Below, in pieces: positions 11,301-23,300 of a stretch of 64,000 nucleotides of DNA. The stretch comes from Saccostrea cucullata. Taxonomy: Eukaryota. The position numbers are program-made. The stretch spans positions 1-64,000 of the forward strand of contig NW_026923728.1 in NCBI RefSeq assembly GCF_032062105.1, written 5' to 3'. The number at the start of each line of letters is the position of its first letter. Position 1 is the first letter of the stretch.

Positions 11301-14300
11301 TTCTTTTTTGCTCGTCAAACTTTAAAAGCCAATTTGTCGTTGTCTTTAACCACCATCCTCTTTCAAAAAAGATTTTGGCGAGCCATTTAGTTTGTTTTCC
11401 AAAGTATCAACTTGATTACCGGTCTTTTAGAGTAGGATATCCCCCTAAAATTTTTTCCCCGGAAAACTGGCTCTAAAGTAGACTCCCCCCCCCCCCTCCC
11501 CCGGAAAACTGGCTGTAGAGAAGGATTTCCCCCCAGGAAAACTGGCTCTAGAGTAGGATTTCCCATACGGAAATCTCACAGTAGAGTCAATTTTCCTGGG
11601 GGGGGGGGGGGTCCTACTCTGTATAGTAGTTATAGAGTGCGATTTCCCCCAGGGTCAATGTAATATAATTTAAGGACAGATGATACAAATAAACTTGAAA
11701 ATTACAATTCAAGTCCTATTTTGATAAGTAAAATGAAAGTTAAATTTTCATTAAAAGTTTATTGAGAAAGGATTTAAGCATCTTCGCTAGCCAAGGGTTT
11801 CCGATCCGAAATCTACTCTACAACCCTTGGGTTGTAGAGTAGATTTCGGATCGGAAACCCTTGGCTAGCGAAGATGGGATTTAAGGAGATTTAATATGAC
11901 AAGAAAAATTGTATAGATTAATAAGTATGGTTACAGAAAGGTGGAAATTTGAACATCATAGTAAGTTAACATTTTTTTAATATTTTAAGAAGATTATTGT
12001 AATCATTTACAACCAAAATAGGTCCAAAAATATATAACAATCTAGACATCCATTTTTGTTTTTTTCATCATATTTTGAGAATATTTACATTTCATTTGAA
12101 AGCTGGATATTTTGGTTGTGATTCCATGATTTGCCTTACAACATAAGTAAAAAAAAAATCCCACTCATTTACCTTTTAAAAATCAGTTTGTCGTTTATCT
12201 TTTTTTCACAAAAATATTGCGGCTGTGGTTTGTATTGACTCTATAACGAGGGGGGGTTGGGGGGTCCTACTCTGAGAAAGAAAGAGGGGGAAGTTTGGCT
12301 CTGGTGTGATATTTCCCCTCGGAGGAAAATCCTACTCTAGAGTACGATTTCCGGGGGGAAAACAGGCTATGGAGGAAATCCTACTCTACAACACCGGTAA
12401 TATACTAGTACTGTAAATCACTTTTTATTCGCGATAACTTTATTTTCGCGTAATTACGCGAGACAGTGTGCTCGCGAATATGTAATTCTAGCATTCCTTA
12501 AGATGATATAGAGCAATAGCCCAATTTGTGAAAATTCTGTCTCGCTAATCAAGAGTCAACGACTATCTCGCGAAAATAAGGTGTCGCGAAAATTTAGTGA
12601 TCTATAGTAGTTCATTTTAATTTCTATTTTCTATTGACTGCCTTATTTGTGTGTTATAATATATCATACATTGCTTCTAAAATTTATGGAGGAGGGGGTC
12701 GCTTTTTCAATGATCATTTTAAAAAAGAAAAGGTTTCCCATGTTGCTGATCGTGCGGTTACAAACATGAATTTGTTTTTAAAAAAAATTAATACATCTAA
12801 TATGATCATGAGTCTGCTCCTATTTTGTATTGTTTTATGGACTTTTATATTGAATACTGTTCGTTATCTCCTTATCCTTCTTTGTAAAAATATTATATTA
12901 CGGTCATCTGTATAATTATATTACGATCATCATCTTTTCACTGGAATGTGTTTGTTACGGTCATCATACTGCAAAATTTCAAAGGCGTTTTTCTTTCATT
13001 TTCGCTTGTTTGGGTTAACAACAACTATACTGGCGTGGAGATAACATCGATGTTCGCTTCATCAATATCTTAAATTACTCATTTTCACTGGATAATGTTT
13101 GTAATCGCCGTCGAAAAATTCGAATCGATCGGCTCGGCCGACATGTTTTGATGACCGTAGTATATACTACGGTCAGCCGCTTTCCTACAGTGACTATGGG
13201 AACAGATTACTGAAAATAAATCACCATTCCTGTTTTTTATTTTTTATTGTTCAAAAATACAATGGAATATTCACCGACTAGGTTTTTTTTTCAAACGTTC
13301 ATTCAATGTTGAGGGAATCATCGTTTTAGTTCATTTTCACTCACCAAATATATGATCAAAAGCTTTTATTAATATGTTTGTGACTATTTTCTTAACTATT
13401 CAAACAAATTCCAATAAAAGGATATGTAATTTGACTCGATGAACACAGTTAAAATGAATGATGCTTTTTTAAGTTCCACTTTATATGCACCTAGATTATG
13501 AGTTATTGTATTCAGGTTGTAGTCTAAAGATTACTCATGACAAAGTTCAGACTCATAGAACATACTATATTTTGGTATTTTTTGGTTCTATTTAATCTTT
13601 TTTTTTTGGTTCACAAAAAAACATACAAAAGGGAAATTATTTAATGCATAAATTATATTTTCAGCTAGCCAGCGAAATGGATCTTTCAACGGTATGTTAA
13701 AATATTATTACACCTTTGCATATATATAAAAGTTTTCTTCTCATATATAAGCTTTTTTGCGCCTGGATCGATAGATCCGGGGCGTATATAGTTCTTCTCC
13801 TGTCCTTCTATTCATTTGTTTGTCTGTTTGTCTGTCAATTTTAACCTTCGCCATAACTTTTGAACCTTGAGGGATAAAGACTTCATATTTAATGTGCATA
13901 GTCAACTAATGAAGTTCTTTCACAAAACCTCAAGGTTAATAACCTTGTGATCTTGACTGTTACAAATATTCTAAAAATAGCCTTTTGGATCCTTAACCAC
14001 AACTTTTCAACCGTACCGTAGCTAGGAGATAGAAACTCGATATAACGTATGCTAATTTCACTAATTAAGCTCCTTCATATGACACCAAGGTCAAATACTT
14101 TGTGACCTTGAGTGTGACCTATAATCTAAAAAAAAACTTTTTAGAACTTTCGCAATAACCTTTGAACCGTAGGAGATAGAGACTTCATATTTGAAATGCA
14201 CACTCCACTATTTAAGTTCTTCCAATCATCAAGGTCAGTGATCTTGTGACCTTGACTTTTACTTTGATGCTAAAAATATGTTTTCACACTTTGTTGCCTC

Positions 14301-20300: not shown

Positions 20301-23300
20301 TCACGGTGTTTCATGGAGGAAAAAAGAATCCTGTTGTCGCAGAGTACTGTGTACAGCTATTTCCATTACTAGGCTTTTGTGGAATGCCTAGATATATTCC
20401 TTTCTCCTTCAGACCGTTCACAAATCCAGAAACGTCAGCAGCTATTGAAGTTCTCGTGGAGGAGACAAATAGGTTAGTGGGAGATATTTTGTTTGAGAGT
20501 TTTGAGGGTTCACTTGTTAACTGTGGAGACAGGTGTCTTGGATTTGAAACAGTGGTTCCTTACTCCGCAATAGCCTCTGGAGTTCGAGATGAAGGGTTTC
20601 GAGGTTTTTGGTTTCCTTTCCTGCAAAGACGACGTCCTAGTACCCTAAATCCTGTTGATTTTGTTGTTCTTGTCAGGGTAAATGGAGCGGCGACACCGCA
20701 GACGGCAGATGTATGGTACAATGGTCAATTGTTTGACTCTCTTCAATCATTCAGAGATGCTTGGTTGAGTAAAAAAGTAGAAAAACTCCACTTGAGTTTC
20801 CCCTCAGATCCACATCCATCTGAAGTGTTTCCGCCACATCCACAAAGACCTCCAACACAAATGGAGCCAGACGGAAAACGTTACTCAATCAAGGGCCAGT
20901 CAATTCACTATATGAACTGGGACTTTCAGTTTGGAATGTCTCCCACTCATGGTCCCCAGTTGTATCAAATCAGATTTAAAAATGAAATGATCATTTATCA
21001 GTTAGGTCTATCAGAGATGACCGTTTTCTATTCATCTTCAGAACCCATTGGTAGATTTGCTAATTTCTTTGATAGTGTCGTTTTGATTGGAAACAACATT
21101 CAGACATTAGTACCAGACGTTGATTGTCCAAGTCATGCAACTTTTGTCGACACAAGATTTATGTCGGAAACGTCAGATATGCCAGTTATTAAAAAAAAAG
21201 TCTGTATGCGTGTTCGAACAAAATACTGGAATACCACTGAGAAGACATTATGTAGCAGACGACTATCCATCAGGGTATTACGAAGGAGCACCTAAAACTG
21301 CACTTGTTCTCCGGATGATTTTTACTCTTGTTAACTATGATTATATCTATGACTTTATCTTCTACAACAATGGCGCAATGGAGACTAAAGTAACAACATC
21401 GGGCATTGACTTGCCGTCATACGTCCAAGACAGCTGTAAATATGGCTTCCAGGTTAACAAACAAGCTACAGGCATGCTTCATCATCACATGTTTAACTTT
21501 AAAGTTGATCTTGACATCGGAGGCACAAAAAATAGTTACTCAACTTACGATATACGAGAGGAGAATGTACCAAATCAATTCTTAAAAGGACGATATCCCG
21601 AAAAATGGTTTCAAACTAAAATAGTTAGAGTAGATTACGCCACGAGAGGGAAGCCGCTTTCAGGTATAATTTCAGCGAACCCAAATATCATGTGTTCTAC
21701 AACGAAAATAATAGAAATATGTTTGGGGATCCTAAAACATATCGTCTTCTCCTAAGAGGCACTGGATGAAAAGTCTAGTTTCCGCAAAACCGAAACTATG
21801 CGGAAACCTTGCTGAAACTTGGCGTTGAAGTTTCCTGTATGGTTTCCGCAATGCGGAAACTATATAATAGTTTCAGCAAGTTTCAGTAGGGTTTCCGTAT
21901 ACTGAAACCATTAGGTTTGTTTCCTAATAGTTTCCGCAAAACGGAAACCAATGTAAAATTTAATGAAACGTCAATTTAACGATACGTTTTAGTTTCAGTA
22001 GGTTTCAGTTTCCGGAAACTATTAATTTCGATTCCATATGGTTTCCGCATGCTGAAACTGTACTGAAACTTTTTCTTTTTTTTTTTCAAAAGGGTAGAAA
22101 AATCAACTCATATGCATATGATCTTTAATTCTCTTTACTATTGATTTCGATTCCATATGGTTTCCGCATGCTGAAACCGAACTGAAACTTTTTCTCTATA
22201 ATTTTTTTTTTCAAAAGGGTAGAAAAATCAACTCATATCATCCTTATATTTATTTACACATTTAAAAAAATATGGTTTTATTTTTAAATTTCTAATAGTT
22301 CATATTCAGATTTTGAGATGTGCCTGCTCTGTGTAAACTTACACATACCGATATTGATATCAATGATAGGCATATTATACAAGATCCTTGCTTCATATTT
22401 AATGTATAAAAATTGTTTATTTAATATTGTGTCGGAATTCAAAAATATTATTTTTAAACAAAATCGATTCCTCTCACAAGGATTTTCTACATTACCCAAC
22501 TCAATACTCCCTCGGGAATTGATTATTTTGAAAACATACATCATTTTCACAAAACTACGATTACGTTTAATGTAAAGTTTTTAAAAAGAAAATTAGTGTG
22601 TCTTCATGGTGCATGAAATACAGATAATTACGAGAGTGAACATAATCTGAGATAGAAAGGTTTGCATTTATATTCTTTATACCAGAGACATATAAAACCA
22701 GAGACATATGGTTTTATATGTCTCTGTTTATACATGTTTCTATGGATATCATTTCAATAATTTCAATTTGTTAATTAACAATACATATTGACTAGGAAGC
22801 CTTTTTTACTATTCATATATATATAGTTCAATAGTTACATGTACTAGTTATTTTTATAATAACATTGATTTAATATCTACATATATATATTTTTATTTCC
22901 GTCTTCGTGAAAACATTTTATTCGTAAGCCGCGGTTTTACAGCATTAAAAATATTACAAGAAAACATGTCCTGAAAATTTGATGTCATGGTTCCCAGGAT
23001 TTGCAGCATTTTATGTCAATCTAATTAAAATTAAATCTTCCATTTGTTCCCCAAATGTTTATTTACACGAGGAACTCTTATCTGTAAAAAGTCTGCTTTT
23101 GTGAAACAATACCCTGGGAGCGAATGGAAAATCTCAAAATTTTAATTAGATTGTATATTAGGTGTAGGCTTTTTTTTTTTTTTTTTTTAAATTTTGTTTT
23201 ATTTCATATATCTTGCTTTCGTGATGTTAATTAATGCAATATCACTGAAAACACGGTATAGTTTTTAGTAATATGTTCAATTATAGTCGTATTGAGATGT

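What the first reader, a model, noticed from the sequence alone, without database searches (positions are those of the whole stretch)
13677..21759. Copper amine oxidase fused to two Lustrin-type Cys-rich modules behind a signal peptide
Seen: two symmetric phase-1 exons encoding 6-Cys modules sit between a signal-peptide exon and the oxidase exon, all in frame. Established: this Cys pattern resembles the repeats of abalone shell-matrix Lustrin A; vertebrate AOC1-3 lack such modules; copper amine oxidases produce aldehydes and H2O2. Inference: exon shuffling produced a matrix-targeted oxidase, a candidate shell or extracellular-matrix cross-linking enzyme. The ORF track misses this architecture.
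Basis: partly seen in the sequence, partly recalled or inferred. Interest (0 to 1): 0.68.

Follow-up and report, generated by a model that had tools for sequence, protein, structure and literature searches.

The report
Oyster amine oxidase with Cys-rich modules, broken
An oyster copper amine oxidase gene really does carry two small cysteine-rich "Lustrin-type" exons behind a secretion leader, as a related oyster's annotated protein also shows, but the copy in this window is broken by two frameshifts and an 8-kb transposon.

Summary
The exon layout is real. A 5-codon start exon (13677-13691) and a leader exon (15563-15629) precede two phase 1-1 exons (17352-17510, 19502-19639). Each of those encodes a 6-Cys module. 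They are followed by a phase-1 oxidase exon starting at 20010, and all splice sites are canonical. Pfam calls both modules Lustrin_cystein: B scores 32.4 bits, above the cut-off of 27, and A scores 22.4, below it. An annotated Saccostrea cucullata protein (P0004) has the same leader, two modules and oxidase. Its module boundaries fall at the window's exon boundaries and all 12 Cys are conserved. The fusion is therefore lineage-real but already sits in public annotation.

There is a +1 base in an A9 run (21191-21199) and a -1 base at 21643/4, giving a stop at 21293-21295. An 8,018-bp CACTA-like transposon (21760-29777, 3-bp duplication) splits the oxidase exon. The gene resumes at 29781-29970 and 30324-30623. 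dN/dS against the tandem copy 1 is 0.175, so the damage is recent, allelic or partly an assembly error. A matrix cross-linking role remains inference.

The parts
13677..13691 (+). Putative first coding exon: ATG plus four codons, then a GTATGT donor, leaving in phase 0
   Evidence: Four of its five residues equal the first five residues of P0004 (read by eye). This is too short for statistics.
15563..15629 (+). Leader (signal-peptide-like) exon, 67 nt, phase 0 in and phase 1 out
   Evidence: Preceded by TTTTAG and followed by GTAAGA. It has a hydrophobic core (mean KD 3.05 over 12 residues). BLASTP against the leader of S. echinata P0003 (residues 8-27) gives 7 of 20 identical, E 0.003 for that single comparison. 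No signal-peptide predictor was available.
17352..17510 (+). Cys module A exon, 159 nt, phase 1-1, 6 Cys
   Evidence: Pfam Lustrin_cystein E 1.5e-4, 22.4 bits, below the cut-off of 27. tblastn with P0004 residues 28-80 gives 62% identity, ungapped. 6 of 6 Cys are conserved (by eye).
19502..19639 (+). Cys module B exon, 138 nt, phase 1-1, 6 Cys
   Evidence: Pfam Lustrin_cystein E 1.2e-7, 32.4 bits, above the cut-off of 27, covering the full profile 1-46. tblastn with P0004 residues 81-126 gives 74% identity, ungapped. 6 of 6 Cys are conserved.
20010..21759 (+). Oxidase exon of copy 2, part before the transposon. It is in three frame blocks: 20012-21185, 21187-21643 and 21644-21759.
   Evidence: Pfam Cu_amine_oxid scores 105.8 and 120.6 bits on the two longer frames. 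It is 90% identical to copy 1 over 1,745 nt. Indels are placed. The in-frame stop is at 21293-21295.
21191..21199 (+). A9 run holding or adjoining the +1 frameshift of copy 2
   Evidence: Copy 1 has 15 nt where copy 2 has 16.
21643..21644 (+). Site of the -1 frameshift of copy 2 (one G of a GG pair missing compared with copy 1)
21760..29777 (.). 8,018-bp DNA transposon (CACTA/CMC-like, apparently non-autonomous) inserted in the oxidase exon. Target duplication AGG at 21757-21759 and 29778-29780.
   Evidence: Inverted ends of 61 nt, 79% complementary, with the outer 13 nt perfect. Sub-terminal repeats. Copy 1 is uninterrupted at the same point. A TGA lies two codons into the element. None of the 3 ORFs scanned has a Pfam hit.
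29781..29970 (+). Remainder of the oxidase exon of copy 2, with a GTAACG donor
   Evidence: dN/dS against copy 1 is 0.074 over 62 codons.
30324..30623 (+). Last exon of copy 2, holding the third copper-ligand His, with stop TGA
   Evidence: Pfam Cu_amine_oxid profile positions 365-406. The alignment to human diamine oxidase 3mph/3hi7 puts the His of the window's HIPH on the structure's HIPH.
296..2235 (+). Tandem copy 1, oxidase exon (open, 645 codons). Its upstream exons lie off the window.
   Evidence: Pfam Cu_amine_oxid 292.8 bits. PDB 3hi7 E 3.8e-88. It ends in TAA 2233-2235 because four bases, including the intron donor, are absent compared with copy 2.
2618..2917 (+). Tandem copy 1, last exon (open)

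Best explanation
The locus is one of two tandem copper amine oxidase genes of an oyster in or near the genus Saccostrea. They belong to a Saccostrea-only clade.

Gene plan of copy 2: a 5-codon start exon, a hydrophobic leader exon, two phase 1-1 exons that each encode one roughly 45-52-residue six-cysteine Lustrin_cystein-type module, one large oxidase exon, and a short last exon.

Shown:
- the exon phases and splice sites;
- the family matches;
- the same architecture in S. cucullata P0004;
- all catalytic residues present when each block is read in its own frame: the Asp base, the NYDY motif that becomes topaquinone, the HxH pair and the third His.

Inferred:
- The intact protein is a secreted dimeric topaquinone/copper enzyme. 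It turns primary amines into aldehydes, ammonia and H2O2.
- Its two disulfide-knit N-terminal modules act as binding adaptors that hold it in an extracellular matrix.
- The modules entered the intron between the leader exon and the oxidase exon by exon shuffling. This happened in a lineage whose ancestors carried an N-terminal membrane anchor.

As assembled here, copy 2 is a recently disabled gene or null allele. A +1 and a -1 frameshift put the cofactor tyrosine and two copper ligands out of frame and give a stop at 21293-21295. An 8-kb CACTA-like transposon also splits the same exon.
For: - Exon anatomy and phases.
- Pfam. In P0004, 2 Lustrin_cystein stretches pass (33 bits), together with Cu_amine_oxid.
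- Orthologous architecture: P0004 is the 1 of 120 listed hits with PF14625. In one search, its module boundaries at residues 28-80 and 81-126 equal the window's exon boundaries, ungapped, at 62% and 74% identity. 12 of 12 Cys are conserved.
- The oxidase exon has no start of its own. There is a stop at 19982-19984 just upstream in frame, and no Met before roughly residue 60. It therefore needs upstream exons.
- Catalytic residues against human diamine oxidase.
- Lesions.
- Recency of the damage: dN/dS is 0.175 over 741 codons, and 0.094 in the block between the frameshifts. There are 0 stops in 741 copy-2 triplets read in the copy-1 register. The end branches are equal, 0.059 and 0.064.
- Clade: 7 rows with 100/100 support, all Saccostrea or window.
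- Ancestral anchor: 9 of 9 bivalve oxidases read from outside the clade begin with a charged tail and a roughly 23-residue hydrophobic stretch.
- Copper amine oxidase occurs in bivalve shell matrices: passages of PMC4660305 (Pinctada prismatic layer, mantle-edge expression), a table row of PMC5379566 (C. gigas), and a table row of PMC6641155 (Perna nacre).
Against: - No transcript or peptide evidence was reachable for the junctions in any species. P0004 is a predicted protein, and partial.
- The S. echinata model P0003 has a similar leader but no Cys modules. P0001 and P0002 lack them too, although their N-termini look incomplete.
- A search with the N-terminal 135 residues of P0004 found only P0004 itself among 16 candidates. 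The architecture is therefore seen in one database protein plus this window.
- Module A alone is below Pfam's cut-off.
- The +1 shift sits in a homopolymer, a classic place for assembly error. The low dN/dS and the equal branch lengths fit an intact gene with sequencing errors as well as they fit a recent pseudogene.
- The transposon may be present on one haplotype only.
- Nothing here tests substrate, localisation or matrix binding.
Confidence: 0.72

Rival explanations
1. Copy 2 is an intact, expressed gene. The two single-base indels are assembly errors, and the transposon is either confined to the assembled haplotype or removed from the transcript.
For: - The +1 lies in or next to an A9 run.
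- There are no stops in 741 triplets, dN/dS is 0.175, and the block between the shifts has dN/dS 0.094.
- The branch lengths of the two copies are equal.
- All catalytic residues are kept.
- The leader and Cys exons and all their splice sites are intact.
Against: - The -1 is in a GG pair, not a long homopolymer.
- The insertion has perfect 13-nt inverted ends and a 3-bp target duplication, so it is a real transposition and not a mis-join.
- There is no GT at or just before 21759 and no frame-keeping cryptic pair that I could find by eye. A TGA follows two codons into the element.
- Copy 1 carries its own 4-base lesion, which suggests real decay in this cluster.
Confidence: 0.17
2. The Cys exons are not part of the oxidase gene. 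They belong to a separate small secreted Cys-rich gene or are optional cassette exons, and P0004 is a gene-prediction chimera.
For: - There is no transcript evidence.
- Only 1 of 120 listed homologues carries PF14625.
- P0003 of S. echinata has the leader but no modules.
- Gene predictors readily chain in-frame exons.
Against: - Four consecutive junctions are phase-compatible with canonical sites.
- The same boundaries appear in a second species.
- The oxidase exon has no start or leader of its own, and no other candidate leader lies in 19640-20009.
- Neither Cys exon ends in a stop within the exon. Each ends at a donor.
Confidence: 0.09
3. The Cys 'exons' are chance open frames in AT-rich intron DNA.
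For: The frames are short (53 and 46 codons). A stop-free run of that length has P = 0.036 or 0.056.
Against: - Pfam E-values are 1.2e-7 and 1.5e-4.
- The exons are 62% and 74% identical to P0004, with 12 of 12 Cys kept.
- They are the only two six-Cys pattern hits in six frames of 64 kb.
Confidence: 0.01

Closest known systems
Saccostrea cucullata 'putative amine oxidase [copper-containing], partial' (P0004, 687 aa; NCBI/UniRef record as named)
   Same: It has the same order: leader, Cys module A, Cys module B, oxidase. Its module limits fall at the window's exon limits. Pfam finds PF14625 (2 stretches) and PF01179. It belongs to the same Saccostrea-only clade.
   Different: It is from a different species: 79-85% identity in the oxidase blocks and 62-74% in the modules. 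It is a predicted protein, truncated at its C-terminus. The window's copy carries two frameshifts and a transposon.
Human diamine oxidase AOC1 (PDB 3hi7/3mph) and vertebrate AOC2/AOC3
   Same: It is the best solved relative, at E 3.8e-88. The Asp base, the NYDY cofactor motif, HxH and the third His all align. My check that these columns correspond to residues 373, 461, 510/512 and 675 rests on recalled numbering.
   Different: The solved chains show no Lustrin-type modules. That vertebrate AOC3 uses a membrane anchor and AOC1 a plain signal peptide is recalled, not tested here.
Bivalve shell-matrix and byssal copper amine oxidases (Pinctada fucata/margaritifera prismatic layer; C. gigas CGI_10026457; Perna viridis nacre hit to a Mytilus byssal amine oxidase-like protein)
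   Same: They belong to the same enzyme family and were found in extracellular mineralised matrices. One is expressed in the mantle edge (PMC4660305 passages; PMC5379566 and PMC6641155 table rows).
   Different: The domains listed there are Cu_amine_oxid and Cu_amine_oxidN2 only, with no Cys module mentioned. The Pinctada homologues I read (P0019) start with a membrane anchor. Supplements were closed, so the full sequences in those papers were not seen.
Lustrin A of abalone nacre, and Pfam family Lustrin_cystein (PF14625)
   Same: Module B matches the whole 46-position profile above the cut-off. Module A matches its C-terminal two thirds.
   Different: Lustrin A is a large multi-repeat structural protein without an enzyme domain (Background passages of PMC6003135). 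Here there are only two modules, which are only weakly alike (7 of 20 identical). Lustrin A itself was not aligned.
Trypsin-Lustrin_cystein fusion of Nematostella/Edwardsiella (bioRxiv 10.1101/645952, passages)
   Same: It is another secreted enzyme that acquired a Lustrin_cystein domain in a narrow lineage.
   Different: It involves a different enzyme and phylum. No sequence comparison was made.
Pichia pastoris lysyl oxidase (PDB 1n9e, 1rky/1w7c)
   Same: It is a member of the copper amine oxidase fold family whose depositors name it lysyl oxidase. It appears among the PDB hits of the last exon at E about 2e-7. That it oxidises peptidyl lysine is recalled. It is a precedent for matrix cross-linking chemistry by this family.
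   Different: It is a distant fungal enzyme with no Cys modules. No specificity determinant was compared.

Membership tests
Copper amine oxidase (Pfam Cu_amine_oxid PF01179; AOC1-like animal enzymes) | Profile match above the curated cut-off | tested here: met
   Copy 1 scores 292.8 bits. The copy 2 frames score 105.8 and 120.6 bits, and the last exons 36.5-36.7 bits. The cut-off is 27.
Copper amine oxidase (Pfam Cu_amine_oxid PF01179; AOC1-like animal enzymes) | Cofactor tyrosine in an N-Y-D/E-Y motif, catalytic Asp, and three His copper ligands | tested here: met
   All align to human diamine oxidase in copy 1 and in the last exon of copy 2. The same motifs are read in the copy 2 blocks.
Copper amine oxidase (Pfam Cu_amine_oxid PF01179; AOC1-like animal enzymes) | One uninterrupted reading frame through the catalytic domain (copy 2) | tested here: not met
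   Copy 2 has a +1 and a -1 indel, a stop at 21293-21295, and an 8,018-bp insertion at 21760.
Copper amine oxidase (Pfam Cu_amine_oxid PF01179; AOC1-like animal enzymes) | Amine oxidase activity and topaquinone formation | not testable with these tools
   This needs an expressed protein.
Lustrin_cystein (PF14625) | Profile match above the curated cut-off of 27 bits | tested here: met
   Module B scores 32.4 bits, E 1.2e-7, over profile positions 1-46 of 46.
Lustrin_cystein (PF14625) | Same test for module A | tested here: not met
   Module A scores 22.4 bits, E 1.5e-4, over profile positions 14-46 only. Within P0004, 2 stretches pass. It is significant by E-value but below the cut-off when taken alone.
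Lustrin_cystein (PF14625) | Disulfide-bonded fold | not testable with these tools
There is no PDB sequence relative: 0 hits for B, and only granulin at E 0.11 for A. PF14625 is listed among repeat families without a known structure in PMC8078820 (table row).
Exon-shuffled module (phase-compatibility criteria, recalled from Patthy) | Module limits coincide with exon limits, and the exons are symmetric in phase 1-1 inside a phase-1 intron | tested here: met
   One search gives the phases. One search shows the module limits equal the exon limits. Copy 1's oxidase exon uses the same phase-1 acceptor position.
Exon-shuffled module (phase-compatibility criteria, recalled from Patthy) | An identifiable donor gene or close relative of the module elsewhere | tested here: not met
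   The module B search of longer proteins scored none. Module A against 1.84 billion representatives gave 1 hit, a 75-aa fragment at E 4e-4. No further module copy lies in the window.
Shell matrix protein | Peptides in a shell proteome, or mantle-specific expression | not testable with these tools
   No Saccostrea shell proteome or RNA-seq was reachable. Paper supplements were closed.
CACTA / CMC-type DNA transposon (criteria recalled) | Inverted ends beginning CACT(A/G), a 3-bp target duplication, and sub-terminal repeats | tested here: met
CACTA / CMC-type DNA transposon (criteria recalled) | Transposase gene | tested here: not met
   None of the 3 internal ORFs of at least 90 aa that I scanned has a Pfam hit. 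Two more ORFs of at least 90 aa (22284-22580 on both strands) and all shorter ORFs were not scanned.
Long-standing pseudogene | Relaxed constraint (dN/dS near 1, accelerated branch) | tested here: not met
   dN/dS is 0.175. The end branches are 0.064 and 0.059.

The most novel reading that the evidence does not exclude
A Saccostrea-specific clade of copper amine oxidases swapped the ancestral N-terminal membrane anchor for a cleavable leader plus two shuffled Lustrin-type disulfide modules. This created a secreted, matrix-tethered amine or lysyl oxidase that hardens the shell's organic matrix or another extracellular matrix by aldehyde cross-links, as a functional analogue of lysyl oxidase. 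The tandem cluster in this genome would be turning over by gene conversion, transposon hits and point lesions.
Probability: 0.2. Interest if true: 0.55.

Novelty: new variant of a known kind. Interest (0 to 1): 0.33.

Why it matters
Copper amine oxidases turn up repeatedly in bivalve shell and byssus proteomes, but PMC4660305 (passage) says their role had not been investigated in molluscs. An oxidase that carries its own matrix-type binding modules would be a natural handle for testing whether these enzymes cross-link the shell's organic framework.

It would also be a clean, datable case of exon shuffling: phase 1-1 exons dropped into a phase-1 intron, replacing a membrane anchor.

For genome annotation, the practical point is that this copy should be flagged as disrupted. 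An ORF-based or exon-chaining annotator would either miss the modules or wrongly call the gene intact.

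Tried and rejected
- **Module B against longer proteins.** One candidate, none scored. This is weak evidence, because the search is word-based.
- **Module A against 1.84 billion representatives.** One hit, P0121, a 75-aa fragment from an unnamed source. It has a repeated Cys motif and a Pfam Lustrin_cystein match at only 17 bits. It is not informative about a donor gene.
- **N-terminal 135 residues of P0004 against proteins of 377-1203 aa.** Only P0004 itself among 16 candidates.
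- **tblastn of the N-termini of P0004, P0003 and P0001 against window 3000-20010 at a lax threshold.** Nothing was convincing. The leaders are too short and too diverged. BLASTP of the leader exon against P0003 later gave E 0.003.
- **ESM Atlas.** Not available for new sequences.
- **Structure prediction for module B.** The tool was not ready, so there is no fold and no fold search.
- **The listing of cluster members for accession numbers.** Switched off.
- **An alignment of P0004's two modules with the window's exons.** The identities rest on the earlier.
- **PDB sequence search of the modules.** No hit for B; granulin at E 0.11 and E 2 for A, which is treated as noise.
- **Pfam on transposon ORFs and other window ORFs.** No transposase found.
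- **tRNA and Rfam scans.** Nothing found.
- **Splicing out the transposon as an intron.** I looked by eye for a frame-keeping donor/acceptor pair and found none.
- **Literature.** Three papers hold both 'amine oxidase' and 'Lustrin'. I read passages of all three. They treat the two as separate items. 'Saccostrea' with 'amine oxidase' gave 3 papers in the search listing only, none on this gene.
- **Not done.** The joined spliced protein was not built or searched.

Full report
**What the window is.**
- The window is AT-rich animal DNA with G+C about 0.27-0.39 and no N.
- The best protein matches of its oxidase exon are predicted amine oxidases of the oysters Saccostrea echinata (88% identity) and S. 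cucullata (84%). The source is therefore an oyster in or near that genus. It is not human.
- Two copper amine oxidase genes lie in tandem on the + strand.
  - Copy 1 has a large exon at 296-2235 and a last exon at 2618-2917. Its upstream part is cut off by the window edge.
  - Copy 2 is the subject of the finding.

| Exon | Coordinates | Length | Phase in/out | Flanks |
|---|---|---|---|---|
| Start | 13677-13691 | 15 nt (ATG + 4 codons) | 0 / 0 | donor GTATGT |
| Leader | 15563-15629 | 67 nt | 0 / 1 | TTTTAG before, GTAAGA after |
| Cys module A | 17352-17510 | 159 nt | 1 / 1 | TTTTAG before, GTAGGT after |
| Cys module B | 19502-19639 | 138 nt | 1 / 1 | CAACAG before, GTAAAT after |
| Oxidase | starts 20010 | - | 1 / - | TTTCAG before |

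- The leader exon has a strongly hydrophobic core.
- Each middle exon encodes one module with six cysteines.
- A pattern scan of all six frames of the 64-kb window found that cysteine pattern only at these two exons.
- Pfam assigns both to Lustrin_cystein.
  - Module B: E 1.2e-7, 32.4 bits, full profile, above the curated cut-off of 27.
  - Module A: E 1.5e-4, 22.4 bits, the C-terminal two thirds of the profile, below the cut-off.

**Independent support from another species.**
- Among the 120 listed homologues of the oxidase exon, exactly one carries PF14625 as well as PF01179. It is P0004, a predicted and partial S. cucullata 'putative amine oxidase [copper-containing]'.
- Its sequence reads leader, Cys module, Cys module, oxidase.
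- In a tblastn of the whole protein against the window, its residues 28-80 map without gaps onto 17351-17509 at 62% identity.
- Residues 81-126 map onto 19501-19638 at 74%, and the oxidase part starts right after.
- The module limits of the S. cucullata model are therefore the exon limits of the window.
- All 12 cysteines are in the same places (read).
- The leader exon also resembles the leader of an S. echinata paralogue, P0003: 7 of 20 identical, E 0.003 for that one comparison.
- The oxidase exon has no start of its own, so it needs upstream exons.
- Together these points make a chance origin, or an unrelated neighbouring gene, unlikely.

- Compared with copy 1, which is 90% identical over 1,745 nt, copy 2 has two single-base lesions.
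  - It has one extra base in or beside an A9 run at 21191-21199.
  - It lacks one base at 21643/21644.
- The frame that enters from the Cys exons therefore runs into a stop at 21293-21295 after 427 codons.
- The block between the two shifts holds the cofactor tyrosine (NYDY) and two copper-ligand histidines (HxH). It is out of register with both flanks.
- At 21759 the homology to copy 1 breaks, and it resumes at 29777.
- The 8,018 bases between, 21760-29777, have these features:
  - 61-nt inverted ends, with the outer 13 nt perfect and beginning CACTG;
  - many sub-terminal repeats;
  - a 3-bp target duplication, AGG.
- These are the marks of a CACTA/CMC-type DNA transposon (criteria recalled).
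- The three internal ORFs I scanned have no Pfam match, so the element looks non-autonomous.
- A TGA follows two codons into the element.
- The gene continues at 29781-29970, with a GTAACG donor, and in the last exon 30324-30623. That exon holds the third copper-ligand histidine.

**How old the damage is.**
- Nei-Gojobori counts, made block by block in the copy-1 register, give dN/dS 0.175 over 741 codons with dS 0.31.
- In the block between the frameshifts dN/dS is 0.094.
- None of the 741 copy-2 triplets is a stop.
- In a maximum-likelihood tree built on the first contiguous block, the two window copies are sisters (support 93/96) with equal end branches of 0.059 and 0.064.
- Copy 2 was therefore under purifying selection for nearly all of its history.
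- The lesions are either recent, confined to the assembled haplotype, or, for the single-base indels, assembly errors.
- The transposon, with its target duplication, cannot be a simple assembly error.
- Copy 1 has its own defect. Four bases that in copy 2 include the donor GT of the last intron are missing, which leaves an in-frame TAA at 2233-2235.
- All orthologues read through this point.

**The enzyme part.**
- The oxidase is AOC1-like. Its best solved relative is human diamine oxidase, at E 3.8e-88.
- The catalytic Asp, the NYDY motif, HxH and the third His all align. The residue numbering is recalled.
- From established knowledge of the family, the intact protein would be a dimeric topaquinone/copper enzyme that turns primary amines into aldehydes, NH3 and H2O2.

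**Evolutionary setting.**
- The tree (19 rows) puts both window copies in a 100/100-supported clade of seven rows. All seven are Saccostrea or window sequences.
- A long branch (0.32) separates this clade from the other oyster paralogues.
- All 9 bivalve oxidases I read from outside the clade begin with a charged tail and a roughly 23-residue hydrophobic stretch, that is, a membrane anchor.
- Members of the Saccostrea clade that have a credible N-terminus (P0003, P0004, window copy 2) have a short leader instead.
- The simplest reading is that the anchor was replaced in this lineage, and that two phase 1-1 module exons were inserted into the phase-1 intron in front of the oxidase exon.
- Whether every member has the modules is open.
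  - P0003 lacks them.
  - P0001 and P0002 have incomplete-looking N-termini.
  - Copy 1's upstream region is off the window.
- Searches for a donor of the modules found nothing useful.

**Function.**
- Copper amine oxidases are known components of bivalve shell matrices.
  - Pinctada prismatic layer, with mantle-edge expression (PMC4660305, passages).
  - A C. gigas homologue (PMC5379566, table row).
  - Perna nacre, with a hit to a Mytilus byssal amine oxidase-like protein (PMC6641155, table row).
- The idea of an extracellular, matrix-associated oxidase is therefore not new.
- The attached Lustrin-type modules may be new.
  - The three papers that hold both words treat them separately.
  - The only papers naming the Pfam family concern a sea-anemone trypsin fusion and structure modelling.
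- The domain is widespread and also rides on other enzymes. It therefore suggests a binding adaptor, not specifically a shell address.
- Matrix targeting and cross-linking remain inference.

**Verdict.**
- The architecture is real, conserved in a second species and consistent with exon shuffling.
- It is already present in public annotation, and in this window the gene is disabled as assembled.
- It is a modestly interesting lineage-specific variant of a known enzyme family.
The fold of the modules, the record accessions and the full proteome tables therefore stayed unchecked.

Noticed in passing
window 2228-2240 (copy 1), compared with 29960-29980 (copy 2): Copy 1 lacks four bases that in copy 2 include the GT donor of the last intron. 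Its big exon therefore runs into TAA at 2233-2235, and the still-open last exon (2618-2917, with the third copper-ligand His) has no canonical donor to join. Both tandem copies carry a lesion.
   Followed up: partly
window 305-2956 versus 20019-21759 and 29777-30660: DNA similarity between the copies starts at the oxidase exon and ends about 40 nt after the stop. The upstream introns do not align. The last intron is 91% identical, more alike than synonymous sites (121 differences over 477 sites). This hints at gene conversion over the 3' part.
   Followed up: partly
proteins P0005-P0013, P0015, P0019, P0021: All 9 non-clade bivalve amine oxidases that I read begin with a charged tail and a roughly 23-residue hydrophobic anchor. 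The Saccostrea clade has a short leader instead. It also has a Cys-x-x-Cys pair at the start of the oxidase exon, where the 6 oyster paralogues from outside the clade have one Cys.
   Followed up: partly
window 44096-44374 (+) and 55749-56069 (+): There is a weak Astacin match (E 0.005, below the cut-off) and a clear MAM-domain match (E 1.6e-9) on the same strand. These may be exons of a meprin-like metalloprotease gene downstream of the oxidase pair.
   Followed up: no
window 60082-60414 (-) and 60521-60916 (+): There is a reverse-transcriptase fragment (RVT_1, E 4.3e-8) and a weak zf-RVT match (E 0.009, below the cut-off). These are retroelement debris.
   Followed up: no
window 15760-16164 and 17054-17171: The introns on either side of Cys exon A hold arrays of 21-42-nt units built on a short palindrome. 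They may be a dispersed miniature element.
   Followed up: no
window 51299-52131: This is a low-complexity tandem repeat that is open in three + frames and one - frame. It reads as His/Asp-rich, Thr/Pro-rich or Pro/Arg-rich strings. G+C skew there is -0.24.
   Followed up: no
window 8661-8740 and 13113-13192: An 80-nt inverted pair at 96% identity lies between the two oxidase genes.
   Followed up: no
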